Source: Rhizophagus irregularis
Taxonomy: Eukaryota
Assembly: GCF_026210795.1 (NCBI RefSeq)
Contig: NC_089431.1
Location: 4,712,001 to 4,776,000, forward strand
Length of the DNA: 64,000 nucleotides
Reading direction: 5' to 3'
Shown in pieces: positions 17,787 to 44,942 of this stretch. The position numbers were made by a program, and so were the translations under genes. Each line of letters starts with the position of its first letter. The first letter of the stretch is position 1. The notes under the pieces are model-generated. The model did not search any database. It was not told where the DNA came from and worked only from the letters and a program-made list of their open reading frames with translations.

Positions 17787-18167
17787 AGTAGTATGAAAAC
17801 CCCAATTCTGGCTCACCTACTTATCTCATAATCTAAACCGTTTATTAATATTTTCACCTACTTATATGCTACATATTTTATAACCTAAATCACCTTTTTT
17901 ATATTTTTACCTACTTATCTCATAATCTAAACCGTTTATTAATATTTTCACCTACTTATATCCTACTTATTTCATAATCTAAATCATTTATTAATATTTT
18001 CACCTACTTACCCCCAATCGAACAAGAAATAGGATTTTAAAGCCAACGGAGCCAAAAAAGGTAAGGAAATATTAACCCATCCAGGAAACCAGCCATGGAG
18101 TCAATAGAGCGGAATAGCAAGGCAAGCAATTTCCCTTATACCGAGAAAAAATGTAATTGAATAAAAG
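17787..18167 (+). repeat. Left TIR of element A
   Basis: Reverse complement of 44562-44942 (I see 2 mismatches); internal CACCTACTTA repeats; ends in AAAAAATGTAATTGAATAAAAG. Confidence 0.95.
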
Positions 18168-18206
18168 GTAGGTACCAAGTAACTATACAGATAAATAGTA
18201 CATAAC

Positions 18207-18650
18207 ATGGTATATACCGCAGTATCAGTAATCCTCGAACTTGTGGGCCATATCCTGGAATACATTCCAAGTAGAAATTTCGGGACACATCTTCTAGAAG
18301 TCAGCCCAATCTGGAGAGCCGAAGCTGAACGAATACTCTGGAAGTGGCATAAAGAAGCCGAGGAGGCATACGACAAAGCAGTAGAAAAGAAGGAAAAAGC
18401 AAATTATGCTCTTGGTCGATCAGAGGAGGAGGGTAATAGAAATCGTGACCTCCGTGAACTTGAATGGGAGGCATATCAAAAGGCTTGTAAAGAGAGAACA
18501 AATGCCGCAGTAGAGCATATTATGGTAAAAGAAGCTATTCGCCGTTGTAGCTTACAACTATAAGTTACTTAAGGATAGAGAATACATCGGGACGAGGATG
18601 TGCTCAGTGACTCGGATGACAATCCCGATGACTCAGATGGTGAGGAATAG
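18207..18650 (+). pseudogene. F-box-like protein with acidic tail, frameshifted near the 3' end (element A)
   Basis: LELVGHILEYIP...LLEVSPIW F-box-like start; LWKWHKEAEE matches 41618-42133; acidic tail DEDVLSDSDD...GEE* lies in a shifted frame. Confidence 0.6.
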
Positions 18651-18727
18651 TTTAGGAAGACAGTACTAATCTGTCTCCCTCTTTTTTTTACCCTCATAGG
18701 GTAGGCGAACAATTAATTTTATTTTCA

Positions 18728-18750
18728 GAAAAAATGTAATTGAATAAAAG
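18728..18750 (+). promoter_or_regulatory. Putative virus-type early promoter motif upstream of pPolB
   Basis: GAAAAAATGTAATTGAATAAAAG, identical to the inner end of both element A TIRs; core lies 29 nt before ATG 18773. Confidence 0.65.
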
Positions 18751-18772
18751 AGGAGTATAAAAAGTTTACAAG

Positions 18773-21700
18773 ATGTCAACACATCAAGCAAGAAGTGCCC
18801 AACACAGACAAGTCACCCGATCAGTTCTAGCTGAACTCAAGCAGGTACCTGTCAAGTCCATCCCATATCCCCGCTCAAATGCAAAATTGCAGGAATATGA
18901 GGATGAGATCTGCCAAATCCGTGAAGCACAAGCGGCGGTAACCAATGAAGAGATAACCCGCATGATGCAAATTGACCCAGACCCACATTATGAGGTAGTC
19001 TTTGAACGTCGTGATCAAGTACGTATAGGAAAGGAGTTAACAGACTCAAACTTTACGGCTGATATTGCTATAGGAACACCTGGAGAGCATGACTATGCTT
19101 CATTTCTTACAGCACACAGTCAAACAATCCAGAATATTCTTCAGGATGAAAGAAATCAATTGGGATCAATAAAAGTAAGAATTGGAATATTTGCCACAAT
19201 AAGACGTTTAGATTCTTACCTTGAGGGATTATTCGGAGATGGTAACTTTAGTGAAGATGATGGAGTAGAGTATATCTACAGATATAACATACCATTTAAA
19301 ACTCGCAATATGCCAATCCTACCATCAACAGATATTAATGGTACATTTAATTTTGCATTAGCAAGAATCATGCAGAAAGTAGAAGACTATGTAAATTACG
19401 GATCAGGTTGGGAATTCTATCGTGTAGAAAAAATATTTATAGAAATCTCGCAATTCCAACCACCCACAGGAGCAGGACATATACCACTCCCAAAAGATCT
19501 TGTCACGAAAAAGGGAGTAGTAAATCCAGCTAATGATGATGACAAATGCTTCCAGTGGGCAATCCTAGCAGCATTACATCCAGTAGAAAAGAATGCAGAA
19601 AGAATTTCCAAGTATAAGGAGTATGTAAATGAGTTAAACTTTGAAGGTATCGAATTTCCAGTACAAGCTGATGAGGTAATTCTAAGAAGATTTGAGCGAC
19701 AGAACCCAACTATTGCCCTCTGCATCTGTGAATGGCGTGACCACCGCCTATGTCCAATATATGTTACCGATAGGGATGATGCAGAGGGCCGTAAAATAAT
19801 AGATTTAGTACTTATCAGTAACGGGGAAAAGCAGCACTATTGCTGGATTAAGAATATGAGCCGTTTAGTAAATAAATGTACAAAAGATGGACATGCAACA
19901 TTTGTCTGCCGATGGTGTATCTCCCACTTCACACATCAACAAGAAATCCATGACAAACATGTAGCAATATGTCGAGGATTAAAGAAAACCCCACAAGCAG
20001 ACCGAATGCCATCAGTAAAGAAAGGAAATGATATATATGAATTCAAGAACTGGAAACGCCGCATGCAAGTCCCATATTACTTTGTTGCAGACTTTGAAGC
20101 CCTAGTAATGGACATACCACCCACAGATGAAGACAAAGATAAGAAAACCAAGAAAGTACAAGAGCAAATCCCCTGCTCATACTCGTATATTAAGGTAAGA
20201 TATGATGGTGTAAGTGAATCACAGAAGATATTTACAGGAGAAAATGCAGCACAAAAATTTGTAATCGAAATGCTAAATGAGGCTGAAGCAATTCGCAATG
20301 AATTCAGAAATCCAATGGAAATGATGCCATTAACAACCCAAGAGCAAGTAAGTTATGATAATGCAATAAACTGCTGGATATGTCGCAACCCCTTAGATGG
20401 AAATAAAGTAAGAGACCACTGCCATATTACAGGAAGGTATCGAGGTGCAGCACATAGAGGATATAATCTTGACTTATCCATAAAACCTCGTGAAATGCAT
20501 ATCCCAGTAATCTTTCACAATTTATCAGGATATGATGGACACATAATTATGCAAGGAATTGGTGCAATGGAATGTGAGGATGATATTGATCCTATCCCTT
20601 ATAACATGGAAAAGTATATGGCATTCAAGTTAGGTTCCCTCCGATTTATAGACAGCTTACAATTCATGAAATCAAGTCTCGACAAATTAGCATCCAACCT
20701 AGGCGCAGAAAAATGTAGAGCACAAGAATGTAGTAATTCACAACACTTATGGCGAATTGATGCAGGTAGATGCTTTGCACATCCTGAAAACTTTAAGATA
20801 ACACGAAGTCAAATACCACCTGAATTACTCGAGATTTATCTTAAGAAAGGTGTCTACCCGTATGAATACATGGATGACTGGAAAAAGTTCGAGAAAACTA
20901 GTTTACCACCTAAAGGAGCATTCTATAGCAAACTTAATGAAACCCACATTAGTGATAAAGAATACGAATATGCACAGTATGTATGGGAAAAAGCAGGATG
21001 TAAAACAATGCAAGATTATCATAACATTTATCTCAAAACTGACGTCCTTCTACTAGCCGATATATTTCAGAATTTCCGAGAAATGGCCTTGAAAAAATAT
21101 GGGTTAGATCCTCTCTGGTATTACTCAACACCAGGCTTTGCATGGGATGCACTATTCTTCATGACAGGGCAAAGATTGGATCTTATAACTGACCAGGATA
21201 TGTACATGATGGTAGAACAAGGATTACGTGGTGGAATCTCTATGGTAAGTAAACGATATGCTTGTGCAAATAATCCAGGTATGGGAGAAGGTAAATGGAC
21301 TGCAGATAAGCCCAAGTCATCTATTCTATACTTAGACGCAAATAACCTATATGGATGGGCCATGTTGCAATACTTACCTACAGGTAACTTCCACTGGATA
21401 AAGGAGGAAAACGAGTTATCTAACATTCAAAGGCAAATAGAAAGTAATGAAATACCAGATGATTCTTCTGAGGGATATATCCTTAAAGTCAAACTGGAGT
21501 ACCCTCAAGCCCTTCATTCACAACACACAGATTACCCCCTTGCACCAGAACGAATGAAGGTTAAGAAGGAATGGCTTAGTAAAAAGCAGCAGGAAATAAT
21601 AGCACGTTCAGGACAACGATATACACCCACGGATAAGCTCATCCCTAACCTATTTGATAAGGATGAATATGTAGTTCATTATAGAAATCTCCAGTATTAT

Positions 21701-22669
21701 GTTAGCCAGGGCTTAGTAATCAAGAAGGTCTATGAAGCTATAAAATTCGAGCAGGCTCCATGGATGAAACCATATATAGAATTTAACACCGCCGAACGTG
21801 CTAAGGCTAAGAATGATTTTGAGAAGGACTTCTATAAACTCATGAATAATAGTGTATTTGGTAAAACTATGGAAAATCTCAGGAAACGTGTACGTGTCTC
21901 AGTAGTACAACCCCAAACCCACCCCAAGAAATATAAAAAGCTTACCTCAGATCCTGCATTCAAGGGTCGTAAAATATTCTCAGAAAATCTTGTTGCAATT
22001 CACTGACGAAAAGTGGAGGTAATGCTTAACCGTCCAACATATGTGGGTATGAGTGTGCTTGACCTCTCAAAGCTCTGTATGTATCAATTCTACTATGATA
22101 CTCTTAAAGTACGATATGGTGAAAAAATCCAGTTATGTTATACAGACACAGACTCACTTCTTGTACAAATCCAAACTGAGGATATTAATGCAGACCTTAT
22201 AGATATGGCAGACCAATTTGACTTCAGTGATTATCCTAAAGATCATCCTGTACGAAAAGCATTAGGTGATAAGACTGACATAAATATGAAAATCCCAGGG
22301 AAATTTAAGGATGAATGTAATGGAGCAGTTATAGCAGAATTTATTGGCCTCCGTCCCAAAATGTACTCCATTCTCAAGGTAGGGGATGAGACCACCAATC
22401 CAAAACATGGTATCCGTAAGGCTAAAGGTGTCCCCTCAAAGGTAGTTAAAAAAGAGTTCCACCATGAGCGGTATAATAAGGCACTCTTTGATCCTAAACA
22501 TAATGATACAGTCACCTTTAGAGCAATCCGATCTGATAGACATGCTATAAATGTTATAGAAATGTCGAAGGTGGGGTTATCCCCTATGGATGATAAAAAA
22601 TGGATTGCACAAGATAATATCACAATGTATGCACATGGAGATTATAGGATACCACAACTTGAAAATTAA
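18773..22669 (+). pseudogene. Protein-primed family B DNA polymerase (Polinton type), one in-frame TGA at 22004-22006
   Basis: Exonuclease motifs ADFEA, FHNLSGYD and YLKTDV; polymerase motifs YLDANNLYG, KLMNNSVFGK, YTDTDS and KAKG; CWIC...DHCH endonuclease VII-like insert; N-terminal GSGW, KCFQWAI and QHY. The two ORFs are in the same frame. Confidence 0.95.
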
Positions 22670-23736
22670 TATAATATATGAGTAGGAGGCAGCATAGTAT
22701 CAGATGGCACAACTAATAATTCTTCTCGAGTAAATATTTTTTTAGGTCCATCAGATAACCTATATATAACCGGCTGCCCATCAACAACTGTGGAAGATTC
22801 AATTGTATAAACTTTAGTAGACCATATTGGATCAGTTGCACGTCTCCTACCTTGGTAATCTGAGTTATCAAGTAAGTATCTCACAAGAGAACCAGCTGGT
22901 AAACATATTTCTTCTGCACCTACAGGTCTATCCTTCCGAATTTTTGAAGGTAGTGCATACACTTGATCTTTCTGGATTGCTTCAACTGGAGACATACCTA
23001 GCAGACGAGTATTAGAATTATTTAGCTCATTCACAATATCAGAAAGGTTCTTAACCCAGGCAGTATTCACACCTTCTGTAAGGAGTTCCTTTGCATCCTG
23101 TATTTTGAAAAGTCTCTCTGCTAAAGTTCGATTATACCGTTCAACAATAGCCTGACTCTTATGAGTAGTACCCACCCGAATACGCACACCTTTTTCATCC
23201 ATTAATCGGATAACTTCATCCTTAAATTCTGATCCCCCATCTACTTGTAAAACTCTTGGCCAAATAAGCGGGCAGTCTGCTTTACTATAAATCTTTTTAA
23301 ATGCCTTAGCAACACGTGCAGAGCTGCGATCTTCTAGAGATACTGAAGCTTTATATCGGCTAGCAACATCTACAATATTTAGACAGTATTTATACAGCTT
23401 TCTATCTACAGTATCATAGGGCATATATAAGATATCTGCTTGATGATACATATTTGGTCGAGTAATCTTATTAAAAGAAACCTGTGGAACATACTTGGGT
23501 ATAGGTGAGTGTATTTGCCATATAGCCTGTTTATGCAACCACTCTGTAATATCAGATATGTTAAAATCATGGCCCTCAGCTTGCACTTTAGCCCAAAGTT
23601 TTTCAGGAGTACGATAATATCCACATGGATGGTAATAGATTTGTTGAAGGATATAATTTTGTTCGATTTGTTTATTAAATGTAGGGTCTATAAAAATCTG
23701 TGGAACTGGCAATGGAAGATACATCGTTAAAGACAC
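22666..23736 (-). CDS. Retroviral-like (rve, DDE) integrase, Polinton type, no chromodomain (element A)
   Basis: HQADIL, VDVASRY, QVDGGSEF and VERYNRTL; start codon uncertain. Confidence 0.92.
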   Translation of the reverse strand: MSLTMYLPLPVPQIFIDPTFNKQIEQNYILQQIYYHPCGYYRTPEKLWAKVQAEGHDFNISDITEWLHKQAIWQIHSPIPKYVPQVSFNKITRPNMYHQADILYMPYDTVDRKLYKYCLNIVDVASRYKASVSLEDRSSARVAKAFKKIYSKADCPLIWPRVLQVDGGSEFKDEVIRLMDEKGVRIRVGTTHKSQAIVERYNRTLAERLFKIQDAKELLTEGVNTAWVKNLSDIVNELNNSNTRLLGMSPVEAIQKDQVYALPSKIRKDRPVGAEEICLPAGSLVRYLLDNSDYQGRRRATDPIWSTKVYTIESSTVVDGQPVIYRLSDGPKKIFTREELLVVPSDTMLPPTHILY

Positions 23737-26048
23737 AGATTACAAAGCTTGCACATACATTGCAATCACAAGAGCAATATATAAAATACCTGTATGGTGT
23801 AATCGAGGGTCATGAATCTGAGATAGAAGAACTTAGGCAAAAAAATGCTGAGTTGCGTGCAAAGCTTAAGAAAGCATTAGAAACGGCATCACTAAAGGAG
23901 GAAGGGCTTCAAGCATTAGAACGTCAGCTGATTGAAGTTGATACTCTAAATATTCAACTTAAAGATCGAATAAAAGAACTTGCTAATAGACAACGGAAAA
24001 ACATGGCAGCAATTCCTCCTGACCCTATTACAGAAATCTTAAATAATCGGACAACTATAGCAAATAGTGTAGCTGGTATTCGTATTCACCTTGATCGTAC
24101 AACTATAGCAGCACACCCTCATATAAATCATTTATTTAACACTGCAAATGATAGTCTTGATGCCATTATCCGATATGCTAATGAGTTGCGAAATATTATA
24201 GAAGATCAAGATAATATGGAGGATAGACTTGAAGGTTTGTTAGATGATGCACATAACCGTGAAGAATATCTTAGACATGAACTTAATAATACACGTGCTA
24301 CTATACTGAGAACAAGACGTACCTATGAGGATGCATATGCAAATGAAGTGCGTTATCGCCAACATTGGGAAGTCCTTGCACAAAATACTCAGATCCAATT
24401 GGCTAACATCCAGGCTCAATATGCTAACAGTCAAATTCAACTAGCTAATGTCCAGAGAGAACGTAATGAGAGTAGAAGAAATGCTCATAGATTATTACAG
24501 CGCTATAATACTGAAACAGAACGAAGTAGAAGGCGGGCTAATGGTATCATTCAGCAAGCTCGAGCATGGAGAGGGCAATTTTTAAACTGTCGTAATCATG
24601 GTCAAAATTTGCAAAATCAGGTCAATAATTTGAATCAACAGATTCTAGCATTACAAAATAACCCTCCGGTAATACAACAACCGATAATGGCAGAATATGC
24701 ACCTAAAAAATTTAGAGGAGCATCTGGTGAAGATCCAGAACTTTGGCTTCAAGAATTCAGGCAATGGTGTGAGTCTGCTGGACTTGATCCTGCTGCTAAT
24801 GCTAGAACTCGTGTTAGGATTCATGGGGTCTTTGAGACTTTACTTGAAGATGATGCTAGAGATTGGTATGAAACACATATCAAAGGAAAAAATTGGGAAT
24901 GTGTAAATCTTCTGGATAATACTGGTGTGGCCAATCTTGCTGCTTTTAATGCTTTGAATAATGGCGCTATACAGGCTGTAGCGGCGAATCAATTTTGTGG
25001 AGGGGCTAATGTATTACATGGACAAGCAGCTGCAGTTAATACTATTACTGGTGCTAATTTTATACCTGATCATACTGTATGGGATGAAGATTGGTCAATA
25101 GTCGAGGGTCGTCCTACTGATATAGCTGTTAATAATCCTAATGCTAATAATGGAGGTACAATTGTGGCTCCTGGAATACGTATTGGACAATTAATATATC
25201 GTTTTAAGCATTACTTCCCTACTATAACATCTGAAAAGTCTAAGCTTGCATTTAATGCTATTGTTCAGGGTAGTGATACTGTAAGCCGATTCTATTCTAA
25301 ATTACGAAGAATGGTTAGACTTGCATATCCAACTCTTCCAGAGGTAAATCAGAATGAATTAGTACGGCAACAGTTCTTAAATGGTCTTTCCAGTGAAAAT
25401 AAGTTGGATGCGTGACGTATTGGTTTAGAAAATTCAGTTGCATCTATTCTGAATAAATTGGAAGAAGTTGAGAAATACAGGACAGATATGCCACCTACTC
25501 CTATAGTTACATATCAGGGTCCAACTTTAGCGGATATTGAGAATCTTATAAATTCTAAAATTCCTATGACTACGGCTAGATCATCTGCAGTACCAGTACC
25601 ATCTTCTAGTCCATTTTCAAGTCCTCAAAATGATACATCATTTCAGAGATTACTTGCTTTAGCATATAAATTAGGTCTTCCAAGAGATATCGATATAAGT
25701 AAAGTAACCCTTAGTGATCTTGAAATATTTATTGATACAGAACTTAATAAAAATTTACCATCTGACCATATTTACCGTGGTAATCAGGTATTTGGTATAA
25801 GTTCAGGTACACGCAAACCAAAGAAATCAAAGAAATGCTCAAGTTGTGGTAAATCTGGTCATACTAAGAGTTCCTGTCCAAAATCTAAGAAGGGAAAGAG
25901 GAAAACAAATTATGCACATGACTCCTCTGATTCCTCTAACTCTTCTGACGCCTCTGACTCCTCTGACTCCTCTGATAGTGATTCAGACTCTGGACATGCC
26001 TGCTATGGATTAAAAAAAAAAGCCTACAGAAAGGAAACGTGTAGATAA
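23712..26048 (+). pseudogene. Gag-like polyprotein: coiled-coil N-terminus, retrotransposon capsid domain, CCHC zinc knuckle; in-frame TGA at 25413-25415 (element A)
   Basis: PKKFRGASGEDPELWLQEF, LEDDARDWY, QGSDTVSRFYSKL (MHR-like), QQFLNGL and CSSCGKSGHTKSSC (CX2CX4HX4C). ORFs 23700 and 25458 share a frame. Confidence 0.85.
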
Positions 26049-26922
26049 AAAGCCTACTGATAAGAAAAAATCACAACTTGAAAGGCAGCGTATTATCTTT
26101 GAGGTTTTTATACAACTCTTAAAGCTTCTGGTTCAATCCTTCGTTAATGCTGTACCAAAAGAGACTGTTATATCTGCTTACAATGCTCTGAATGCTGAAT
26201 TCATTAATTATAAAGAACCAGTACTCAGTCAGCTTAAAGGAGAACCCTCAATAAAAACACGTGAAAAAGTTTGGGATAATGTTAAGGACCTTTTCACATC
26301 TATCCTTCATCCTATGATTTCAGTTGTAACTAATAGTATGGCTGCAAATTTAATCCGTAAAAATGATGATGTTATATGTAATAATGACTTATGGTCTTCT
26401 ATAGCAGGTATTGGAATTGTTAACCGCAAGTCTGCTAGTGATGTAGTCACTATTAAGACCAAAGTAGTCGCACCTGAGAGTGAAAAATCTTTAGTTATTC
26501 CTACGACAATTTTCGATACTGGTTCTGATAGTTCTCTGATATCTAACAATATTGTAAAGCGCCTAAATCTTGACGTTGATAGAAGTAATGCTCCTGACCT
26601 TAGTGGTGTTGCAATAAAATCTGATACTATTGGGACAGTATATGGTCTTGGTATTCTTGTATATGATGGGGAGAACTCTAAAAAAATTGAAGATGACTTC
26701 ATGGTTGTTAAGAGTGATAAGGACTTTTTATTGCTAGGTGTACCTTGGATTGATCGTGCTAATGTCATTCTAGATTTCCAAAATCGGCAACTGACCATCC
26801 CTCTATCATCACGTAAAAAAATTACCATTCCAATTTCTCTACATAAACGGAAAACTAACGTGACTTCCTTGCAGATGGATACTATCGACTTAAAAAAAAT
26901 TCACACTCTCGAGGAAGATTAA
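26020..26922 (+). CDS. Retropepsin-type aspartic protease, frame open from the A10 run at the end of gag (element A)
   Basis: IFDTGSDSSLIS and FLLLGVPWI; frame is stop-free from ~26020 into the annotated 26314 ORF. Confidence 0.88.
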   Translation, partial: KPTERKRVDKKPTDKKKSQLERQRIIFEVFIQLLKLLVQSFVNAVPKETVISAYNALNAEFINYKEPVLSQLKGEPSIKTREKVWDNVKDLFTSILHPMISVVTNSMAANLIRKNDDVICNNDLWSSIAGIGIVNRKSASDVVTIKTKVVAPESEKSLVIPTTIFDTGSDSSLISNNIVKRLNLDVDRSNAPDLSGVAIKSDTIGTVYGLGILVYDGENSKKIEDDFMVVKSDKDFLLLGVPWIDRANVILDFQNRQLTIPLSSRKKITIPISLHKRKTNVTSLQMDTIDLKKIHTLEED

Positions 26923-27128: not shown

Positions 27129-27367
27129 TTACATTTGCCATGTTACTCTGATTTCTAGGTCTTTACGGGTTTCTATGAGTTTTTCAATGGCATTTTTATT
27201 TTTAAAATATCGACTATATCTGATATCTAGCTTTTGAAGGTTTGGTAATATATGCAGGATTTCACTTAGCAAATCTCTAACGTCACCTTTTCCACCATAG
27301 TATTGATAATCTATTATGCTAAGTTCCTGGATATTGGGGCAAGCTTGTAGCATTTTTACAATACAGA
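27129..27367 (-). pseudogene. 3' half of F-box/LRR-like gene of element A, split by element B
   Basis: CIVKMLQACPNIQELSI...LPNLQKLDI; joins in frame with 42664-42937 across the ACAGA TSD. Confidence 0.85.
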
Positions 27368-36013: not shown

Positions 36014-37204
36014 TTACAAAATACTATTGATCCCTACTCGTAATGCTCGACGGTCCATATGACCCTTAGAAAAGATCTGTAAAAGGACCCCGATGCCTTC
36101 TATTATTTTTTTATTATCCAAAGGGTGACTAGACTTCAGGACTTCATATCGGAAGAATAACTCCTTTACGGTCTCAGATTTTGGAATTTCAGTCTTCGCG
36201 GTCCTATCCCGTACTTTCGCTAAGAAGTTTTGGAAGTCTGATCCCAGGGTCTTACCAGATAATCCGTAGGCTTCCCGAAAGACGTACTTAATCCAGGTAT
36301 CTGCGTTCTTAGCTATAATACCAGATACGAGGAGGTGTTTTCTCTCTTTAGGCGATGGATATTCCCGAGCAAACTCAATTAGCTGGAAGGACTTTTTTGC
36401 TTCAGCTACAGCTTTTTGGCCATAAGGACTAAACTTTGATCGAACTGGGTTCAAACTCGGATCGAACGGGGATTGAACTGAGTTCGAACTAGAATCGAAC
36501 TGAGATTGATCAGTGATCGAACTGAGACTAGTATCCCATCTAACCCGAATGGATAACGGATCGCTCTTGGATCTTCTAAGATCAAACACTACAAATTCAC
36601 GTTGCAGAGTAAGATCATCAATTACTGGTGCTAATGACTCTGATTCTTCTGTATATAGGCGGATGATTCTCTTAGTATCGGTCAAACTTCCGTGACCTCC
36701 ATGTAGGGAAATATAATTCACATTTTCACGAATAGCCTTGGGAATGGTAAAGAATCTTTGGGCCACATAAATACATGAAATATTTTTGGTTCGTCCGTGT
36801 GTAAAAAATCCAGTGATGAGATCCTGGGTTTTTTTAGGCGCATCCATCAAATCCTTGAAGATTACCACAGTAGCCTGGGTGGAGTTGAAGTCCTTAACAT
36901 TTGGAATCTCACTATGGGATACTGCGGTAAACGGAATTTCTTCTTCTTTGAAAAAATCACGTACGACTGCCCACTTCGGTTCATCGAGGTATCTGCCAAC
37001 TAGAATTACCGCATCACATAATATGTACCTTTCGCCATCCTCCTTTGCCTTCTTGTCTCCCATTAACAAATTAATAATCATAGTTGTCTTACCCGAGTCA
37101 GAACTTCCTGCTACGGCAAGACGGAAAGGCCATGATGGGGCAAACTCATTACCCTGTCTCGAGTCGGTCGTGTACTCGTCCAAATTGTATACATAAAGAT
37201 CCAT
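36014..37204 (-). CDS. A32/FtsK-HerA-like DNA packaging ATPase (element B)
   Basis: GSSDSGKTT (Walker A), VVIFKDL (Walker B variant), THGRTKNIS, AQRFF and IPKAIRENVNY. Confidence 0.88.
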   Translation of the reverse strand: MDLYVYNLDEYTTDSRQGNEFAPSWPFRLAVAGSSDSGKTTMIINLLMGDKKAKEDGERYILCDAVILVGRYLDEPKWAVVRDFFKEEEIPFTAVSHSEIPNVKDFNSTQATVVIFKDLMDAPKKTQDLITGFFTHGRTKNISCIYVAQRFFTIPKAIRENVNYISLHGGHGSLTDTKRIIRLYTEESESLAPVIDDLTLQREFVVFDLRRSKSDPLSIRVRWDTSLSSITDQSQFDSSSNSVQSPFDPSLNPVRSKFSPYGQKAVAEAKKSFQLIEFAREYPSPKERKHLLVSGIIAKNADTWIKYVFREAYGLSGKTLGSDFQNFLAKVRDRTAKTEIPKSETVKELFFRYEVLKSSHPLDNKKIIEGIGVLLQIFSKGHMDRRALRVGINSIL

Positions 37205-37235: not shown

Positions 37236-39418
37236 ATGTCGACACCAATTGCAATTTATACTCCTTCAGAGCCTACTGGACCGCCTCCTAGGGATTTGCG
37301 TGATATGAATAATATACCATTAGTTGCGGTAATTAAGGATCTAACAGATTTTTTAACTGTCAGTGATCGCATGGTTGTTAATCGAGATGTACAAAATGCA
37401 AATCATCGTCTTAAACATGCTCTTAATTTATTAATTCATCGCTGTAGAGAAACATACGAAGAACGCGATATATTAAAAGCGGAACGTGATCGATCTCGAA
37501 AAGAACGTGATGAATTACAAGATGAACTCGAGGTTCAAACGGGTTTGTTAGGTCTTACACAAGATGAGCTAAATAACGTACAAGATACTATTACTAGTTT
37601 AGAAGCTAATTTGGCTGAATTGGAACGTGAGTTTGGTGGTATGCGGACGACTAATCGTCGTCTTCAGCAGCAATATAATCTTATGAGAGGAGAACGTAAT
37701 AGAGCTATAGGTGAACGTAATAGAGCTATAGGCGAGCGTGATGTGGCACGAAATCGGCTTGTATATGCCAATAATCGGGTTCTTTTTGGAATTCGGACAT
37801 TGGGACGTCTTAGGAATCGACTTTTCCAACAAATAGCCGCTCTGCGTATCCAAGTACAATGGTTTCGGATTAGACAATTGAACCTTCCTCCACCTCCTCT
37901 CAACCATTCACAAAATACGATATGGCTGCCGTTGGTATAGCTGCCCCCATATTTCATGGTCGGGAAGATGAAGATCTTAATCTTTTTATTGATAACTTTT
38001 TAGGGTATATTAATACCGTTGGTATTGATCCATTGGACGATGCCGGTGCACCTCCTGGTCGGGTGCGAGCGATGGGGGTTCTTCGTAGCTGTATGAGAGA
38101 TGAAGCGGCGAGGTGGTTTGATGCAGAACTTACTGGAAAAAATTGGGAACTCTCGAATATTCGGTTAGTGGCTACTGCAAATGGTGGAGCCGGTGCTACT
38201 CGCCGAGCGTTCAGAGCTTTAGCTGTTCCTGAGGTTGCTAATGGATTACATGTTGGTACTTACTTACCCGGGTCTGATGTTGATGCATATTCAAGGATTT
38301 TAGCTAATGCGGCGAGAACCGTTGGAGAAACATTTTTCCCATCACGCGCTGATATCGTTAGAACGAATTTTAAAGTTGAAGAGCAGTGGAGGCGTGCGGG
38401 CGGACGTCCTACTCATCAACCCGTTAATGGGTTGGGAAATCATGGAGGTCCATTTAATGCTGCTGTCCAGAATCAACCAATAGTCTTACAGGGGATTCTC
38501 CTGGATCAAGCATTTATGCATATGCGTACAAATTTTCCAACCGTCGTGGAAGAAAGACTTCAAATACGATTTAGTAACCTTTACCAGGAACAAGGTGAAC
38601 CTGTTCGATCTTACTATAAGCGAGTTGAGAGGGCTGGGGATATTGTAGGATATAATCGAATTATGGTTACTGACCAGTTCTATAGAGGACTTTTGCCGGA
38701 AAACGTTATTGAAGCTTCCAGAATCGGGGCGGCACCTCTTAATACATTAATCGATAGATTGAGTGATCTTGAGCGACGAAAGGGCAAAATGTTCTATGGA
38801 TTACAAAGGCGTCAGGGTATTGAAAAGGCTAAAAAAGAGGAATTGGCTGGCTATACTCATCCCGTGACTCCACACGAAGGTGCTGTAATACAAAGGTCGA
38901 CAGACGTTATTACTCAAGAACGATTACAAGAATTGCTCAAGGCACAAGCCGAGGAACTTACCAAGAATTTCCAGGCACAATTTAAACAATTACAAGCATC
39001 TAAGCCAGTTCGTAAACCACCGGTCTATAGACAACAGATTAAACCTGTTCGGCCAAAGCCACGGCCACGCGTTGTTCAGGATCATCAGGATCCTGATTGG
39101 GATGATGGTTATGTAGATCATAATTTTGGTGATGACCCTGGTGACCCTGATGCTCCTGAGTGGACTAGTGAGGATGATCAACATGTTATTGATCTTATTA
39201 TGGGATATGAGACGTCTAAAAGATTTCCAAAGAGACTTCAGAAGGCTAAAGATAGACGCGATGATCTGGAATTAGCCCGAGCAATGAGAAACCTCGATCT
39301 TAATGATGATGCTATGGATATTGATACTAATACCGCGAGTTTTGATGACTTGAAAATTGTTCCCGATGAGGAAGGTGGTTTTCGGATTTGTGCGGTTCGA
39401 AGTACAAAAAAAAAGTAA
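37236..39418 (+). CDS. Gag-like polyprotein (coiled-coil part 37236-37940, capsid part 37922-39418; probably one ORF broken by a 1-nt indel near 37895) (element B)
   Basis: PIFHGREDEDLNLFIDNF, MRDEAARWF, QEQGEPVRSYYKRV (MHR-like) and DQFYRGL; collinear with the fused element A Gag; no zinc knuckle. Confidence 0.82.
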
Positions 39419-40137
39419 ACTCGGATAAGGGTGTAAGTATCTCGAAACTTCTTAAATCTGTTCCAAAAAAATCAGTTAAAATGACTCCTATTAAGATTCC
39501 TGTGAAGGTTACTAGTAGTAAGCCCACACTTATAAAAGCCGTCACCAAAAATGATTCATTAAGTTTATTAAGGTCTGCAGATTTTAGAAAATTACTCCGC
39601 GAGATTCTTCGGGAAGAATTAAAGTCTGCTCGTAAAAGTACGGAGATTCCGGAAGACCTAGTTGAAGAAAAACAAGAAGAGGATATCAGGGAAGATGACC
39701 CGATGGATATTGACATAGCTCGTTTGGAGAATACTAAAGATCTTTTAGCACTGGATGGGAAGGTCAATGGGATAGCAATTCAGTGTTTAGCAGACACTTG
39801 TGCTAACGCGTCTTTTATTCAGAGGGAAGCCGCTGAAGAATTAGTGTTGGATATCGACAAGAGTATTACACATAACATATCCGGCGCTCCGGGTTCTGAT
39901 AGGACATTTGGCATGGTAAAAGGTGTGTCAATCAAACTAACCCCTGATTGTGTAATCACTGAGAATCTCGCGGTTTTAAGCGATTACAAGCATAGGGAGA
40001 TTGGATTGAGCCGGACGTGTCTGAAACGTTACAATTATGATGTCCATGAATCACGTGAACATATTGCCCTTACTTGTAATGAGAAGAATGTTTTTATCCC
40101 AATAGTTTCTGACGTGAATCGAGGAGACAAAAAATAG
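39388..40137 (+). CDS. Retropepsin-like aspartic protease in -1 frame to gag, atypical DTC active-site motif (element B)
   Basis: VNGIAIQCLADTCANASFI; overlaps the gag end at A AAA AAA AAG TAA. Confidence 0.8.
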   Translation: MCGSKYKKKVNSDKGVSISKLLKSVPKKSVKMTPIKIPVKVTSSKPTLIKAVTKNDSLSLLRSADFRKLLREILREELKSARKSTEIPEDLVEEKQEEDIREDDPMDIDIARLENTKDLLALDGKVNGIAIQCLADTCANASFIQREAAEELVLDIDKSITHNISGAPGSDRTFGMVKGVSIKLTPDCVITENLAVLSDYKHREIGLSRTCLKRYNYDVHESREHIALTCNEKNVFIPIVSDVNRGDKK

Positions 40138-40151
40138 GGAATATTTATTTT

Positions 40152-41279
40152 TTATTCCCAAAACTTGCGGATTAAGGCAGGGACATCCTCCTCCAACCGG
40201 TCAGCGGGTTCCCAAGTGGCTTCGGTATCTGGGTATCGTTCCCACTTGACTAGATACTGGTCTTGACCCTTCCTGATGCGATGCCGGAGTATCCGCTCAG
40301 GTACAAATCTTTCGGGTTGCCCTCTTATCACGGAGTCAGGTGGGGGATGTTCATTTTCTGGAACAATCTGCAACTCTTTTCGGGTGTACGCACATCTGGA
40401 TACACCTAGACGCCCGTGTGGTCCATCAAGAAGATACGTAGGAGGCTGTTCGGGTGAGAGGATCATTTTTTTGATGACACGGATATTGGGATTCCATCTT
40501 ATGTCACCTGTACGAAATTTTCTATGGAGTTTATTCCCGAGTACTGAAATAGGTTCGTCTAACTTGACTCGGACATGTGTTCCTTCAGAGAGAAGTTCCG
40601 TCTTTTTTGACACTTTGGGTGACCCTGTCGGAATGTCTGGGGGATTTCTCTGCCAGATTTCATCTATTTTATTAACTACATCACGGAAATCTTCTGACCA
40701 TTCCACGGATGTCACCCCGGTCTTCAACTCCTGTGCCACCATTCGTTTTAGGAGAGGTTCCTGGATTGCTTGGATGGCTCGTTCAGCGTATGATTGCTGT
40801 TTGTGTCTTCCTGGTTCGCCGAACCTCATCATCACCCCTAGGCTGTTCAGGAAAAAATCACGTACCTGATCATTAGTGAATTCTGATCCGGAGTCTGTCT
40901 CTATTCGATGTGTTGGTGGCTTAATGCGATTTCTTCTGTAGATTTTAACAAATCCATTGAGAACCTTATTTGCGGTTTTATCCTTTAGGGGTTCTGCATC
41001 GACTTGTTTACCCGTGACTTCCACCACTACGAGGAAATAGTGGAATCCTTTGGGATCGACTGGCATCTCTGCAAGATCTGCCTGATGTGTTGCATTTGGT
41101 TTCCATACAACTACTCGTGGACGCTCTGATGACTTCTCCTTTAGGGGCTTTTTATATAGGTTGTAGTGCTCCTCACCTTTTAGAATTCGTGCCGGTACTC
41201 TGGAGAGATTGTAGTATTTGTAGTAATTCTCTAAATGCGACATATTACGACAAATTAAAGGAAAGATTTCAGACTTCAA
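40152..41279 (-). CDS. rve (DDE) integrase with C-terminal chromodomain (element B)
   Basis: HQADLAEM, ETDSGSEF and AERAIQ; FVPERILRHR...YLVKWERYPDTEATWEP chromodomain. Confidence 0.92.
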   Translation of the reverse strand: MKSEIFPLICRNMSHLENYYKYYNLSRVPARILKGEEHYNLYKKPLKEKSSERPRVVVWKPNATHQADLAEMPVDPKGFHYFLVVVEVTGKQVDAEPLKDKTANKVLNGFVKIYRRNRIKPPTHRIETDSGSEFTNDQVRDFFLNSLGVMMRFGEPGRHKQQSYAERAIQAIQEPLLKRMVAQELKTGVTSVEWSEDFRDVVNKIDEIWQRNPPDIPTGSPKVSKKTELLSEGTHVRVKLDEPISVLGNKLHRKFRTGDIRWNPNIRVIKKMILSPEQPPTYLLDGPHGRLGVSRCAYTRKELQIVPENEHPPPDSVIRGQPERFVPERILRHRIRKGQDQYLVKWERYPDTEATWEPADRLEEDVPALIRKFWE

Positions 41280-41287
41280 ATCTTAAG

Positions 41288-41608
41288 ATGACACGATTTT
41301 ACTGCCTAAAGTGTAAGAAGGAAACCGAGACTGCTAGTGAAATACAAGATATGACCACAAATGGCCGCTATCGTTTACATGGTGACTGTGTAGTTTGTGG
41401 GATGCATAAGAATACTTTTACTGGGATAGACTGGGTTATCAAAAAGAAAACCAAGGAGAAGAAAAAAGAAACTGCGGCTAAAAGACATCAGATGGCGTAC
41501 AATCGGCAATGCAAAAAACTCGGGCAGAAAATCTTAGATTCTGATGACACGTGTAAGCAGTGTATTGATAAATGCCTTAAGGAGGCAAAAAAGAGGAAGA
41601 CGGATTAG
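41288..41608 (+). CDS. Small zinc-ribbon protein (DUF5679-like) (element B)
   Basis: MTRFYCLKCKK...TNGRYRLHGDCVVCG..KNTF; ATG at 41288. Confidence 0.75.
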   Translation: MTRFYCLKCKKETETASEIQDMTTNGRYRLHGDCVVCGMHKNTFTGIDWVIKKKTKEKKKETAAKRHQMAYNRQCKKLGQKILDSDDTCKQCIDKCLKEAKKRKTD

Positions 41609-41617: not shown

Positions 41618-42133
41618 CTAAAAGTATTCCTCATCATCTGAGTCATCGAGAGATACCTCTCCATCATCTGATTCATCATCCGAGTCATCAGGAGTGCGAC
41701 CTTCCTTAAGCAATTGGATGTTGTACGTTATTTGAGTCCATTTCTCCCAGTCAGACTCTTGCGTTATAAAGCCGCATCTGAGGAGTGCTCTTTCTATTAC
41801 TACCATCCCTGCAAACCTGGTGTATTTTTTCTGATCGGCTTCATTGAAATTGTCAATGGCTTCTTTGTAGTAGTCTACTGCCTGTTTGTATACCTCTTCG
41901 GCTTCTTTATGCCGCTTCCACAACTCGGCTTTACAACAGTTATACCAGAGTCTGTTAATCTTGAGATGTTTTCCGAATTCTTTAACCGGAAGGTTTCTGA
42001 CCATCTCTGCTACTATGTCTGGGTCATTGAGGGGTGATGCCTGAATTTGGATCCATTTACGGATTCCATAGATGTCTACAAGATCAAGCCCGAGGTCTTC
42101 GGCAAGAGAAGTGGCGGCGTGTAAGTTTATCAT
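41618..42133 (-). CDS. F-box-like protein with acidic tail (element B), homologue of 18207-18650
   Basis: DPDIVAEMVRNLP...LKINRLW; LWKRHKEAEE; DDSDDESDD tail. Confidence 0.7.
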   Translation of the reverse strand: MINLHAATSLAEDLGLDLVDIYGIRKWIQIQASPLNDPDIVAEMVRNLPVKEFGKHLKINRLWYNCCKAELWKRHKEAEEVYKQAVDYYKEAIDNFNEADQKKYTRFAGMVVIERALLRCGFITQESDWEKWTQITYNIQLLKEGRTPDDSDDESDDGEVSLDDSDDEEYF

Positions 42134-42143
42134 TGTATGTTAC

Positions 42144-42658
42144 TTATAGTTACCTAATCTTCAATTGCCGAATGTATTTTTTCTGACGGGGGTAAGTGGT
42201 CATAGTTCGGGTGCCATAGTTCGGCTGTCATAGTTCGGCTGCCATAGTTCGGGTGCCATAGTTCAGGACATAGGGAATCATACTTGGAGGGTCTAGGTGA
42301 GTATATAAAGGGTAATCATAGCGTGAATCGGGTTTTGGGGTCTGAGGGGCTGACTAAGGCTGCCATAGTATTATTATAAGATTTTTCGTACTATGGCAGG
42401 TACTATGGCAGGAGATTCTGTTTGATTTCGGCTTTATTCGCGTTTTTATTCCATTTTTAAGTACTCTGCCATAGTTGCCATAGTTGTCATAGTAAGTTAT
42501 ATATAAGAAAAAATGTAGAAAAAAAAAAAGTGGAAAAATACCGTGGCAGACCATGGTACTGTGGCAGGTAAACCTGCCCCACGGAGGGGGGATGTAGGTA
42601 CTGCGAGGCCCTGGCCGAGGTGGAGGAACGTTAGTGACTACACTACCAGCCCGACGAC
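42144..42658 (-). repeat. Right TIR of element B (515 bp)
   Basis: Reverse complement of the left TIR with five instead of three 14-bp units. Confidence 0.93.
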
Positions 42659-42663
42659 ACAGA

Positions 42664-42937
42664 TAGGCCATAATAATACTCCATCCATATTAAGCTTTCT
42701 GATATATTTTCCACATACTGTCCCTGGTTTTGTGAGATGTTTGTACATTTGGAACTCCTTAATATTATAGAGGTTATAAAGGTCTGTTTCACCCCATAGG
42801 AGAGAGTTTGCTACTACAGCCCATTTTCGACACACTAATGCATAATTGCAAAGATAATGCCAACGGGAGTAAGTACCTTCATATGAAGTTTTGAATATCT
42901 TTTCTAAAAGTTCGAAAGGTAAGCTATTGTTTGTCAT
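42664..42937 (-). pseudogene. 5' half of split F-box gene of element A
   Basis: NSLPFELLEKIF...ALVCRKW F-box; ...LLWPIC continues as IVKMLQAC at 27362. Confidence 0.88.
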
Positions 42938-43041
42938 GGTATCTCATATGAGATATTGATGAAGAAGTTTTATTTAATTAGATTTTTTCTTAGGATAAAA
43001 TAATTTGAACATTTCTTTTCTATCAATAGAAAAAACCAGAC

Positions 43042-43833
43042 ATGCTTACTTTTAGTGAACTTACTCCATCTCTTACTGTTACTGAATTTAAGATCAATGT
43101 TGAAGGGCTTGATTACACCGTGCTTGGTCATAAGCTTGAACCTACTAAGGATGTTATTGCCATTAATAGCAACTTTATTCATAAAGCTTTTGAGGGTTAT
43201 GAACAGTACTTGTCTAAACCAAAAGGTGAGAGGCGATGCAGACGAAGTACACCTGACAATCCATTAAATAGACGGCGACGTACAGGGGATGGTAGCACTT
43301 TTAATGCATGCATTGAGTTTGTTATCATCTTAGCTGATACTGTACATACTATTCGTTATTTTCCTAAATCTGGTAGTATACAAGTTTTCGGGTCTTTTGA
43401 TCCTGTTGCTATCTTCTTACGTTACCTTTCTGAATGTTCCCTACCTGAATTTTCTTCTGTAGAACTTGTGGGTGAAAATAAGGCTCTCCTGCGCAATTAT
43501 AAATTTGTGATTAATATTGGGGGTGATAAGTTTATTAATCTTTCTACCTTAGCATATGCTTTAGAATCTATAGATGGTATTCGTGAGATTCTTCCCTTTC
43601 CGATAAAGTATATTAAGAATGATGCAGGTGATATTCATTCTAAAATTGCTATAATCTTTACTTCAAAGATTCGGGTACATATCTGGCCTAAATCTGGTAA
43701 GGTTAATATATTTGGCACTAAGACTGAATTGGATGCTGATATGGTTTATAAGTTCTTACAGAAGTTGTTTTCTAATCCATATAATTTTGGAGATTTTATT
43801 TGTGATGCACCTATTCCAGATTGCGAGAGGTAA
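43042..43833 (+). CDS. Viral-type TATA-binding-protein homologue (ASFV B263R-like) (element A)
   Basis: Two TBP-like repeats IRYFPKSGSIQVFG and VHIWPKSGKVNIFG; AINSNF, GDGSTFN and PIPD match my recollection of asfarvirus B263R. Confidence 0.85.
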   Translation: MLTFSELTPSLTVTEFKINVEGLDYTVLGHKLEPTKDVIAINSNFIHKAFEGYEQYLSKPKGERRCRRSTPDNPLNRRRRTGDGSTFNACIEFVIILADTVHTIRYFPKSGSIQVFGSFDPVAIFLRYLSECSLPEFSSVELVGENKALLRNYKFVINIGGDKFINLSTLAYALESIDGIREILPFPIKYIKNDAGDIHSKIAIIFTSKIRVHIWPKSGKVNIFGTKTELDADMVYKFLQKLFSNPYNFGDFICDAPIPDCER

Positions 43834-43853
43834 AAAAATGGTTTCACTGAAAA

Positions 43854-44537
43854 CTAGAAACCCTCTATTTGTAAAATCCAGCAATCGCATTCATGACTTC
43901 TTGTTGGCATAAGACATTCGTCACATAGAGTTATAGCCAACTCATTTTTTAGCCTATCCAGCTGACTCTCAGTGGTTGGTGCAAGATTTTGGTAGTATTC
44001 ATTGAATTCATTCTGCTCTTCTTCATTTATGTCTTCATCTATATCTTCATCTGTGTCTTCATCCATATCTTCATCTCCTTTTATATGATAGATGCTGAAT
44101 TCATTTCTATATTCATCATTAGGATTTGTGAATATTCTTTGTATATTGTAATCTATAATGTTGAATGTTGTAGGTTTCTTTTTTGATAATATTTCTACTA
44201 AGTCTAATAATGCATATGCTAATTCTTTATCCTCTGAGAAGTTCTTAATGATATCTGAAAATCTTTCATATATTGCCATCTCATCTGGTAGAATAGAATA
44301 TCTTATTCGTGATAAAAGTGATGGATGTATCCATATATCATCACCTTCTAACATGTCATCAAATATTTCTACTAGCTCTTCTAATCCAGATACTAACATA
44401 CTTTCTTTGCTAAATTCGGAATCTAAAGCTTTTAAATATGCTATATCTAAATACCACATTATTTCCTTTACCCATTCTTCTATGTTGAGTTCAAACTGGC
44501 CTAGTATACGTCTTAGTAATGGTCTGTATTGTGACAT
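43854..44537 (-). CDS. Acidic hypothetical protein with C-terminal Cys cluster (element A)
   Basis: 227-aa ORF directly inside the right TIR; ends LCDECLMPTRSHECDC. Confidence 0.75.
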   Translation of the reverse strand: MSQYRPLLRRILGQFELNIEEWVKEIMWYLDIAYLKALDSEFSKESMLVSGLEELVEIFDDMLEGDDIWIHPSLLSRIRYSILPDEMAIYERFSDIIKNFSEDKELAYALLDLVEILSKKKPTTFNIIDYNIQRIFTNPNDEYRNEFSIYHIKGDEDMDEDTDEDIDEDINEEEQNEFNEYYQNLAPTTESQLDRLKNELAITLCDECLMPTRSHECDCWILQIEGF

Positions 44538-44561
44538 CTTGTAAGTCTTTTATATGTGAAT

Positions 44562-44942
44562 CTTTTATTCAATTACATTTTTTCTCGGTATAAGGGAAAT
44601 TGCTTGCCTTGCTATTCCGCTCTATTGACTCCATGGCTGGTTTCCTGGATGGGTTAATATTTCCTTACCTTTTTTGGCTCCGTTGGCTTTGAAATCCTAT
44701 TTCTTGTTCGGTTGGGGGTAAGTAGGTGAAAATATTAATAAATGATTTAGATTATGAAATAAGTAGGATATAAGTAGGTGAAAATATTAATAAACGGTTT
44801 AGATTATGAGATAAGTAGGTAAAAATATAAAAAAGGTGATTTAGGTTATAAAATATGTAGCATATAAGTAGGTGAAAATATTAATAAACGGTTTAGATTA
44901 TGAGATAAGTAGGTGAGCCAGAATTGGGGTTTTCATACTACT
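44562..44942 (-). repeat. Right TIR of element A
   Basis: Reverse complement of 17787-18167; ends TACTACT. Confidence 0.95.

What the first reader, a model, noticed from the sequence alone, without database searches (positions are those of the whole stretch)
17787..44942. Polinton-like DNA elements that carry retrotransposon Gag plus retropepsin instead of a jelly-roll capsid module
Seen: two separately TIR/TSD-bounded elements each encode PolB, a DDE integrase, a Gag-like capsid protein and an aspartic protease. I find no RT (no YxDD context), RNase H, LTRs or PBS, and no ORF recognisable as a double-jelly-roll MCP, penton or adenain protease. The integrases are antisense to gag-pro, lack the HHCC domain and are Polinton-like, so this is not an inserted Ty3 remnant. 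The two Gags are divergent but share private features, implying an old, vertically kept module. Established: canonical Polintons use DJR MCP, penton, A32 ATPase and a cysteine protease. Inference: a lineage of self-synthesising dsDNA elements that replaced its morphogenetic module with a retroviral-type capsid and maturation protease, i.e. a DNA-replicating genome in a Gag shell. I do not know of a description of this architecture.
Basis: partly seen in the sequence, partly recalled or inferred. Interest (0 to 1): 0.95.

Follow-up and report, generated by a model that had tools for sequence, protein, structure and literature searches.

The report
Fungal Polintons with retroviral-type capsid
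Two nested, DNA-copying virus-like transposons in a root-symbiotic fungus show no recognisable capsid gene of their own kind and instead carry a protein predicted to fold as a retrovirus-type capsid plus a retroviral-type protease, which likely form a shell that would carry the element's DNA between the fungus's many nuclei.

Summary
Observation confirmed, with corrections. A 15.3-kb element sits inside an 11.9-kb one; each has its own TIRs and 5-bp TSD, pPolB, rve integrase, Gag and retropepsin, with no RT or LTR. The host is Rhizophagus irregularis by homolog labels. The inner Gag core is predicted (pLDDT 85.5) as a two-domain retroviral CA with a family-wide ~115-aa insert. Gag-Pro is a standing part: integrase lies head-to-head with Gag in 13 of 14 long-enough soil contigs, and CA and protease are under purifying selection. 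Corrections: the inner element keeps an A32 ATPase, and the two elements are different replicons (Polinton-type versus mavirus-type PolB), so Gag-Pro has crossed lineages. Not wholly unseen: a 2021 figure legend labels Gag/retropepsin in a PolB element, and a 2026 survey lists such fungal elements as capsid-less plasmids, although its supplement shows retropepsin in many and never together with MCP. No paper found discusses it. Best reading (0.55, inferred): Gag is the 'missing capsid' of mycorrhizal Polintons and packages their DNA. No particle, cargo or expression was shown.

The parts
17782..17786 (.). Outer TSD AGAGG (left)
17787..18167 (.). Outer left TIR, 381 nt, with internal direct repeats
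18204..18563 (+). Subterminal ORF (119 aa), homologous to the inner ORF 41618-42133
   Evidence: 36% over 55 aa, E 3e-9
18773..22669 (+). Outer pPolB, Polinton type (N-terminal region, OTU-like Cys/His motifs, exonuclease with EndoVII insert, palm); copy-specific TGA at 22004-22006
   Evidence: 22004 reads C in 4 of 4 runs; intact in L002; OTU label from motif likeness
22666..23724 (-). Outer rve integrase, no HHCC, head-to-head with gag
23712..26048 (+). Outer Gag: N-terminal coiled coil, CA from 24687, CCHC knuckle near 25830; TGA at 25413-25415 in this copy
   Evidence: relatives P0001 and P0009 read through
26014..26922 (+). Outer retropepsin (DTG); +1 frame to Gag in this copy at an A10 run, one A fewer (in frame) in runs X6 and X3
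27129..27362 (-). Outer F-box/LRR gene, C-terminal part
   Evidence: intact in L004, L006
27363..27367 (.). Inner TSD ACAGA (left)
27368..27854 (.). Inner left TIR
27883..30360 (+). D5-like superfamily 3 helicase (DUF5906) with acidic repetitive tail
30445..32297 (+). Inner pPolB, 617-aa mavirus type without exonuclease; copy-specific frameshift near 31894
32361..36000 (+). Five short accessory ORFs (174, 156, ~134 F-box, 203, 183 aa)
36014..37204 (-). A32/FtsK-like packaging ATPase
   Evidence: Pox_A32 E 1.1e-8
37236..37940 (+). Coiled-coil ORF, counterpart of the outer Gag N-terminus, overlapping the Gag start
37922..39418 (+). Inner Gag, intact; CA = residues ~5-293 with insert 74-190; no CCHC; ends KKK-stop on an A run
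39370..40137 (+). Inner retropepsin (DTC motif) in the -1 frame
40152..41243 (-). Inner rve integrase with chromodomain, no HHCC
41285..41608 (+). DUF5679 ORF
41618..42133 (-). Subterminal ORF (171 aa)
42144..42658 (.). Inner right TIR
42659..42663 (.). Inner TSD ACAGA (right)
42659..42937 (-). Outer F-box/LRR gene, N-terminal part
   Evidence: F-box-like E 4.3e-7
43042..43833 (+). 263-aa ORF with two TBP-like repeats (label recalled from motif; fold test inconclusive)
43854..44537 (-). Acidic ORF (227 aa), conserved in soil relatives
44562..44942 (.). Outer right TIR
44943..44947 (.). Outer TSD AGAGG (right)

Best explanation
These are two nested self-synthesising DNA elements of a mycorrhizal fungus, each with a PolB and an integrase, that carry a Gag predicted to fold as a retroviral capsid and a retropepsin where their relatives have jelly-roll virion genes, and the Gag likely assembles a protease-matured intracellular shell that would enclose the element's own linear DNA with its integrase. 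Shown: gene content, nesting, conserved linkage, selection, absence of RT and LTR. Predicted: CA fold. Inferred: excision, protein-primed copying from the TIRs, Gag:protease ratio set by slippage on an A run, packaging of DNA, delivery to other nuclei of the coenocyte, integration with a 5-bp TSD. The Gag-Pro-integrase set is inferred to have moved between a Polinton-type and a mavirus-type replicon.
For: CA fold: pLDDT 85.5; ranks 1-38 of 48,161 chains are all Gag capsid proteins, Z 10.2 to 4.8, first unrelated row 4.2; both halves match (Arc N-lobe rmsd 1.7 over 63; PEG10 CTD rmsd 2.3 over 84); profile hit to PEG10 CTD E 7e-4. Linkage: of 36 real soil loci, 14 extend >1 kb upstream of CA; 13 of 14 have the antisense integrase, down to 34% Gag identity; the 6 that reach past the integrase all have PolB (5 of them are near-identical copies of one family). 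Rough dN/dS window versus soil relative: CA 0.25, protease 0.14, integrase 0.11, PolB 0.10. Gag and integrase identities rise together (rho 0.78, 15 non-independent pairs). 365 Gag relatives at 50% clustering, also in Entrophospora. No RT motif in the elements or in 99 kb of loci; the protease motif lies 18-137 aa from the C-terminus in 114 of 114 models. Largest gap between ORFs outside the TIRs 457 nt. Published table for mavirus-related group 1: PolB with retropepsin_like 56 and pepsin_retropepsin_like 29, with RT_LTR 3 and RT_like 5; no MCP row pairs with a retropepsin or Gag domain. A Ty3-size shell has ~5e4 nm3 inside; 11.9 and 15.3 kb of duplex DNA take about 1.3e4 and 1.6e4 nm3 (1.07 nm3 per bp as), so they would fit.
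Against: No particle, cargo, transcript or free linear DNA was shown. Known Gag shells pick up RNA, not duplex DNA (established knowledge). The inner Gag has no CCHC knuckle, and its protease has DTC for DTG in 101 of 114 motif-bearing models, so activity is uncertain. The A32 ATPase is in the inner element only, and A32 pumps normally serve jelly-roll shells. Foldseek gave no hit at E<=0.001 (best 6e-3), and Z near 10 is modest for helical domains. The gag-pro frame varies with A-run length: -1 in 5, in frame in 2, +1 in 2 of 9 loci, which could be assembly error or slippage rather than a programmed shift. Only the inner Gag was folded. A penton among the short ORFs is not excluded.
Confidence: 0.55

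Rival explanations
1. PEG10/Arc-like RNA container: Gag-Pro makes particles that hold the element's mRNAs or proteins (shielding them from small-RNA silencing or moving them along hyphae), while the DNA transposes naked as a capsid-less Polinton.
For: Best structural match is PEG10 CA; PEG10 has gag and a frameshifted protease and forms VLPs (PMC10076021); the outer Gag has a CCHC knuckle. Capsid-less Polintons exist (PMC4028283).
Against: It does not explain why retropepsin never pairs with MCP in the published group-1 table, nor why the inner element keeps a DNA-packaging ATPase beside gag. The inner Gag lacks the knuckle.
Confidence: 0.2
2. Defence cargo: the Gag is a dominant-negative capsid that poisons competing LTR retrotransposons or viruses (Fv1/p22-like, recalled), kept like the F-box accessory genes.
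For: An endogenised Ty1 Gag restriction factor is among the fold matches (rank 36). The elements carry other host-interaction genes (F-box).
Against: Whole Gag plus protease plus junction are kept; CA and protease are as conserved as the integrase (65-71%) and more than the accessory ORFs (44-57%); the family has a private ~115-aa insert in 49 of 49 full-length rows, which argues for self-assembly rather than mimicry (inference).
Confidence: 0.1
3. Helper-dependent satellite: the DNA is packaged by a jelly-roll capsid supplied in trans (or by an unrecognised short ORF) using the A32 ATPase, and Gag-Pro does something else.
For: A32 ATPase is retained in the inner element; mavirus-related elements co-occur with giant viruses (PMC13215967); the short ORFs were not all folded.
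Against: The outer family has no ATPase in the window or in L004/L006; no MCP has been found for Glomus polintons (PMC7805220); no unassigned ORF exceeds 263 aa.
Confidence: 0.1
4. Passenger: gag-pro is the remnant of an LTR retrotransposon that inserted by chance and is carried along.
For: Gag-protease order is that of LTR elements; a search for longer RT-fused forms could not be made.
Against: No LTR, RT or RNase H; fixed position beside the integrase in 13 of 14 loci; purifying selection; CpG level follows each host element (outer 0.58 versus PolB 0.50, inner 1.07 versus 0.84).
Confidence: 0.05

Closest known systems
Polintons/Mavericks (Polintoviricetes), including the MCP-less Glomus intraradices Polinton
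   Same: Outer element: long pPolB with exonuclease, rve integrase without HHCC, TIRs ending AG..CT, TSD. PMC7805220 says no MCP has been found in the G. intraradices element.
   Different: 5-bp TSD (6 bp is the usual figure, recalled); no DJR MCP, penton, Ulp1/adenain or A32 recognised in the outer element; Gag and retropepsin instead.
Mavirus-related elements, pMVRE group 1 fungal lineage (PMC13215967)
   Same: Inner element: short exonuclease-less pPolB, separate S3H (DUF5906), rve with chromodomain, DUF5679, TIRs; their lists hold 128 Glomeromycete rows, 6 of R. irregularis.
   Different: The paper calls them free of structural proteins and likely plasmids; here the inner element has a CA-fold Gag, a retropepsin and an A32 ATPase. 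Membership is inferred from domain content, not from a tree.
Element labelled 'Matrix/Capsid/NC/Pro' in Starrett et al. 2021, Fig. 5 (PMC8502044)
   Same: The legend lists Gag/retropepsin, TBP and S3H labels for elements with adintovirus-like PolB; the paper mentions Rhizophagus PolB.
   Different: Only a legend entry; the text does not discuss it. I could not see the figure or Table S1, so that it shows this family is my inference.
Ty3/Gypsy retrotransposons (Metaviridae) and PEG10
   Same: Two-domain CA, CCHC knuckle (outer), retropepsin after an A-rich junction, DDE integrase with chromodomain (inner).
   Different: No RT, RNase H, LTR or HHCC; integrase is a separate antisense gene; ~115-aa insert in the CA N-terminal domain; DNA polymerase and TIRs.
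Bidnaviruses; caulimoviruses
   Same: Bidnaviruses: pPolB lineage that swapped the DJR capsid for an unrelated one (PMC11161782). Caulimoviruses: duplex DNA in a Gag-related shell (CA homology in PMC6525542; the rest recalled).
   Different: Bidnaviruses took a parvovirus capsid and are ssDNA; caulimoviruses copy by reverse transcription. Neither joins pPolB with Gag.

Membership tests
Polinton/Maverick (outer) | Protein-primed PolB with exonuclease | tested here: met
   All Exo and Pol motifs; weak phage PolB hit; no Pfam hit
Polinton/Maverick (outer) | rve integrase, long TIRs, TSD | tested here: met
   TSD is 5 bp
Polinton/Maverick (outer) | Double jelly-roll MCP | tested here: not met
   By coding space: no unassigned ORF over 263 aa, no gap over 457 nt, no Pfam or PHROG match; same layout in L004 and L006
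Polinton/Maverick (outer) | Penton (single jelly roll) | tested here: inconclusive
   Only the 263-aa ORF was folded, pLDDT 46, alpha/beta, best Z 4.4
Polinton/Maverick (outer) | A32 ATPase and Ulp1/adenain protease | tested here: not met
   No Pfam hit in any outer ORF scanned
Mavirus-related pMVRE group 1 (inner) | Short pPolB without exonuclease plus separate S3H | tested here: met
   617-aa family with conserved NDC and HY motifs and palm motifs, no Exo motifs; DUF5906; definition
Mavirus-related pMVRE group 1 (inner) | pPolB groups with mavirus in a tree | not tested
   No mavirus sequence could be fetched (searches found none)
Virophage (Maveriviricetes) | DJR MCP, penton, cysteine protease, ATPase | tested here: not met
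   Only the ATPase is present; no ORF or gap large enough for an MCP
LTR retrotransposon (Metaviridae) | Gag with two-domain CA | tested here: met
   (inner); outer by homology E 3e-20
LTR retrotransposon (Metaviridae) | Retropepsin | tested here: met
   inner motif is DTC, activity untested
LTR retrotransposon (Metaviridae) | RT and RNase H | tested here: not met
LTR retrotransposon (Metaviridae) | LTRs | tested here: not met
LTR retrotransposon (Metaviridae) | Primer-binding site | not tested
   No host tRNA set on hand
Virus (particle-forming) | Shell that encloses the genome | not testable with these tools
   Needs particles

The most novel reading that the evidence does not exclude
A cross-realm chimeric virus of mycorrhizal fungi: a protein-primed, DNA-to-DNA replicating linear genome packaged in a retroviral-type Gag shell, a swap that spread to both Polinton-type and mavirus-type replicons, with an A32 motor in one lineage pumping DNA into a CA lattice, and with the shell serving as a nucleus-to-nucleus shuttle in a coenocyte.
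Probability: 0.45. Interest if true: 0.95.

Novelty: new variant of a known kind. Interest (0 to 1): 0.8.

Why it matters
It offers a concrete answer to a stated open question, the missing capsid of the Glomus/Rhizophagus Polintons, and overturns the reading of a large fungal lineage as capsid-less plasmids. If the Gag encloses DNA, it is the first case I could find of a retroviral capsid serving a genome that never passes through reverse transcription, joining two viral realms, and it would show how a virus adapts to a host with thousands of nuclei in one cytoplasm. Mavericks are expanded in Glomerales, so this bears on genome change in major plant symbionts. The inner Gag ORF is intact, so the key test is direct.

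Tried and rejected
No host genome was held, so copy numbers could not be counted. The search for longer, RT-fused forms of the protease could not be made. The complex predictor was not available, so CA self-assembly was not tested. No relatives in IMG/VR or GTDB contigs; these scans are word-based and insensitive. No RNA holder listed. Contig depths are not copy numbers and were not used. No long contig was obtained for the inner family, so its gene order outside this window rests on a published domain table. The 263-aa ORF gave a poor model; TBP and no jelly-roll protein appear among weak rows, which decides nothing. Residue-propensity averages for short ORFs were uninformative. No strong RNA structure follows either gag-pro junction (-12.7 and -7.6 kcal/mol over ~90 nt, no shuffle control). 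PolBs found no PDB or NCBIfam match. L037 was dropped as spurious (GC 0.69, no match). The Gag tree is a quick tree without bootstrap (51 rows) and supports no order of events. My first idea that both junctions are -1 was wrong for the outer copy (+1). Earlier scan notes held nothing on this element.
Full report
Anatomy. The region holds two long inverted-repeat pairs. The outer pair bounds 17787-44942 (379 of 381 nt identical, TSD AGAGG) and the inner pair 27368-42658 (484 of 486 aligned, TSD ACAGA). The inner element sits inside the outer F-box/LRR gene; contigs from 4 of 4 runs laid join 27362 to 42659 with a 5-letter overlap, which is the empty site. Without it the outer element is 11,860 bp; the inner is 15,291 bp. 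Both are GC-richer (0.33-0.42) than the flanks (0.25-0.26). The closest homologs are labelled Rhizophagus irregularis, up to 100% identical over the inner Gag core, and the flanks carry kinase-Sel1 and AIG1 genes.

Two different replicons. The outer PolB (about 1,300 codons) has OTU-like Cys and His motifs, three exonuclease motifs, an EndoVII insert and the polymerase motifs; its stop at 22004 reads C in 4 of 4 runs. The inner PolB belongs to a 617-aa family (180 hits; PF03175 in 12 of 23 aligned members) with conserved NDC and HY motifs and palm motifs but no exonuclease motifs, next to a D5-like helicase. PMC11161782 (passages) describes exactly this plan, terminal protein-vOTU-palm plus a separate S3H, for mavirus. 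The two PolB profiles do not align (probability 0.1; the outer profile had only 3 rows). The inner element also has a Pox_A32 ATPase, DUF5679 and a chromodomain on its integrase. So the window shows a Polinton-type and a mavirus-type replicon sharing one Gag-Pro module. Their Gag cores align at 28% (E 3e-20), their integrases at 33%, and they share a subterminal ORF. The mavirus assignment rests on domain content; no tree was made.

The Gag is a capsid protein by prediction. A profile of 8 cores found 365 relatives at 50% clustering. With 106 sequences AlphaFold2 gave pLDDT 85.5, pTM 0.77 for the inner core. Against 48,161 PDB representatives ranks 1-38 are all Gag capsid proteins (HERV-K Z 10.2, rmsd 5.9 over 171; PEG10 CTD Z 10.1, rmsd 2.3 over 84; Arc N-lobe Z 6.9, rmsd 1.7 over 63), and the first unrelated row is Z 4.2. 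Foldseek ranks the same proteins first but reaches only E 6e-3. The Atlas gives Retrotrans_gag clusters at 0.92-0.94. The outer Gag adds a CCHC knuckle; the inner one has none. The outer Gag was not folded.

Protease and junction. Both Gags are followed by a retropepsin. In 114 of 114 models with the motif it lies 18-137 aa from the C-terminus, and the longest of the best 150 profile hits is 893 aa, so no RT polyprotein was seen; the first two searches were length-limited and the search for longer forms could not be made. The inner family has DTC in place of DTG (101 of 114, mostly near-identical copies). The inner protease is in the -1 frame behind an A run and a stop; 5 of 6 complete divergent inner-type Gags picked by a strict filter end in KK(K/R), and 11 such ends are marked on the tree. 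The outer protease is +1 in this copy but in frame in runs X6 and X3. Over 9 soil loci the frame is -1 in 5, 0 in 2, +1 in 2. A programmed -1 shift is likely for the inner type; for the outer type it is unclear.

The module is a standing part. A metagenome scan gave 37 loci, 36 real. Of 14 that extend over 1 kb upstream of CA, 13 have the antisense integrase head-to-head with gag, down to 34% Gag identity (L024); the exception L009 has a homolog of an inner-element ORF. All 6 that reach beyond the integrase have PolB; five are copies of one family at 65% identity and L021 is a second. L004 and L006 continue in the window's order: protease, F-box, 263-aa ORF, acidic ORF. No RT-like motif occurs in these 99,017 bases. 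Single contigs from other samples bridge PolB, integrase and gag (X10 20891-25573, X3 21434-24277). Rough dN/dS against L002/L004 is 0.25 for CA, 0.14 for protease, 0.11 for integrase and 0.10 for PolB, with dS near saturation. These linkage data concern the outer type only.

No LTR element, no room for an MCP. Six frames of the region have no YxDD-like motif, the flanks of gag-pro share no repeat over 20 nt, and the ORFs tile both elements with no gap over 457 nt outside the TIRs. The largest unassigned ORF is 263 aa and modelled poorly as alpha/beta. A penton among the short ORFs is not excluded.

Prior work. PMC8502044 (section 3.4 read whole, other passages; figure not held; supplement cut, Table S1 not seen) has a Fig. 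[quoted passage not shown] The text says nothing more; that the figure shows this family is my inference. PMC13215967 (first part of Results, passages, parts of supplements 3 and 5) lists 128 Glomeromycete rows among complete mavirus-related elements and calls the fungal lineage free of structural proteins and likely plasmids; 'gag' and 'protease' do not occur in its text. Its group-1 table (about 168 elements) pairs PolB with retropepsin_like 56 times, pepsin_retropepsin_like 29, rve 109, Retrotrans_gag 7, RT_LTR 3, RT_like 5, Pox_A32 9, and none of the 17 MCP rows names a retropepsin or Gag. PMC7805220 (passages) states that no MCP was found for the G. intraradices Polinton. A 2026 preprint (passages) notes Rhizophagus A32 genes near Polintons. 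PMC11952901, PMC11075540, PMC11296320, PMC4409740, PMC6431247 and PMC4028283 (passages) and 10.64898/2026.10.13.758929 (term search, no hits) do not link Gag to these elements. Eight full-text searches gave no listing that describes the architecture. Kapitonov and Jurka 2006, Pritham 2007 and Repbase were not read and may bear on novelty.

Mechanism. Shown: two mobile elements with polymerase, integrase and a selected Gag-Pro, without RT. Inferred: the element excises, is copied by protein priming from its ends, and is enclosed by Gag; the protease matures the shell; the particle moves in the shared cytoplasm to another nucleus, where the integrase inserts it with a 5-bp duplication. Ty3 shells hold ~5e4 nm3 (PMC6525542, passages); the two genomes would fill about a quarter and a third of that. 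The retained A32 in the larger element may help load DNA, or may be a relic. The strongest argument that Gag replaces the capsid is its mutual exclusion with MCP in the published table. The strongest argument against is that known Gag shells select RNA and that PEG10 makes particles from Gag and protease with no genome to carry (PMC10076021, passages). I put DNA packaging at 0.55, an RNA container at 0.2, defence cargo at 0.1, a helper capsid at 0.1 and a passenger at 0.05.

Verdict. Real, family-wide for the outer type, and surprising; glimpsed in a legend and a supplement but not discussed in anything I found. It fails membership of canonical Polintons, virophages and LTR retrotransposons, while working like a Polinton in replication and integration. 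New variant of a known kind on present evidence; categorically new if DNA-filled Gag particles are shown. Interest 0.8.

Noticed in passing
window 17324-17791 and 44917-45300: The outer element interrupts an ORF whose two parts flank it in register with the TSD, followed by a 309-aa ORF at 45230-46159; it may be another mobile element's gene. No Pfam hit for the left part or the 309-aa ORF.
   Followed up: partly
window 17787-27362 versus 27368-42658: CpG observed/expected is 0.46-0.55 in the outer element but 0.91 in the inner one and about 1 in the flanks; the outer PolB stop is a CGA-to-TGA change. The outer family looks longer exposed to methylation.
   Followed up: partly
window 18204-18563 and 41618-42133: Both elements carry a homologous ORF just inside a TIR, with 85% DNA identity patches, a sign of exchange between the two replicon types.
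   Followed up: partly
L011:1-1515: The integrase ORF runs at least 505 aa, with a ~130-aa extension beyond the match to the window's integrase that resembles a PD-(D/E)XK nuclease (recalled motif; no Pfam hit).
   Followed up: no
L009:157-393: An outer-type Gag (68%) is preceded by a homolog of an inner-element ORF (34381-34992) in place of the integrase.
   Followed up: no
proteins P0030-P0033: A third R. irregularis Gag-protease family shares the coiled-coil N-terminus and CCHC but lacks the ~115-aa CA insert; genomic context unknown; could be the link to the donor.
   Followed up: partly
window 43042-43833: 263-aa ORF with two TBP-like repeats, conserved at 56% in soil relatives; fold test inconclusive.
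   Followed up: partly
window 16473-17436: Nested inverted repeats of ~300 nt just left of the outer element, found in many copies in other samples; likely MITEs.
   Followed up: no
window 56381-57332, 58947-59238, 63415-63706: A ~290-nt repeat in direct and inverted copies; likely ends of another DNA transposon.
   Followed up: no
window 48844-49974: 33-bp tandem array that reads as a 457-aa coiled-coil ORF on the minus strand.
   Followed up: no
window 1-2300: Very AT-rich (11% GC) satellite of ~90-bp units.
   Followed up: no
L003:4254-8678 and L034:1775-3742: Soil copies broken by Plavaka and hAT transposase genes.
   Followed up: partly
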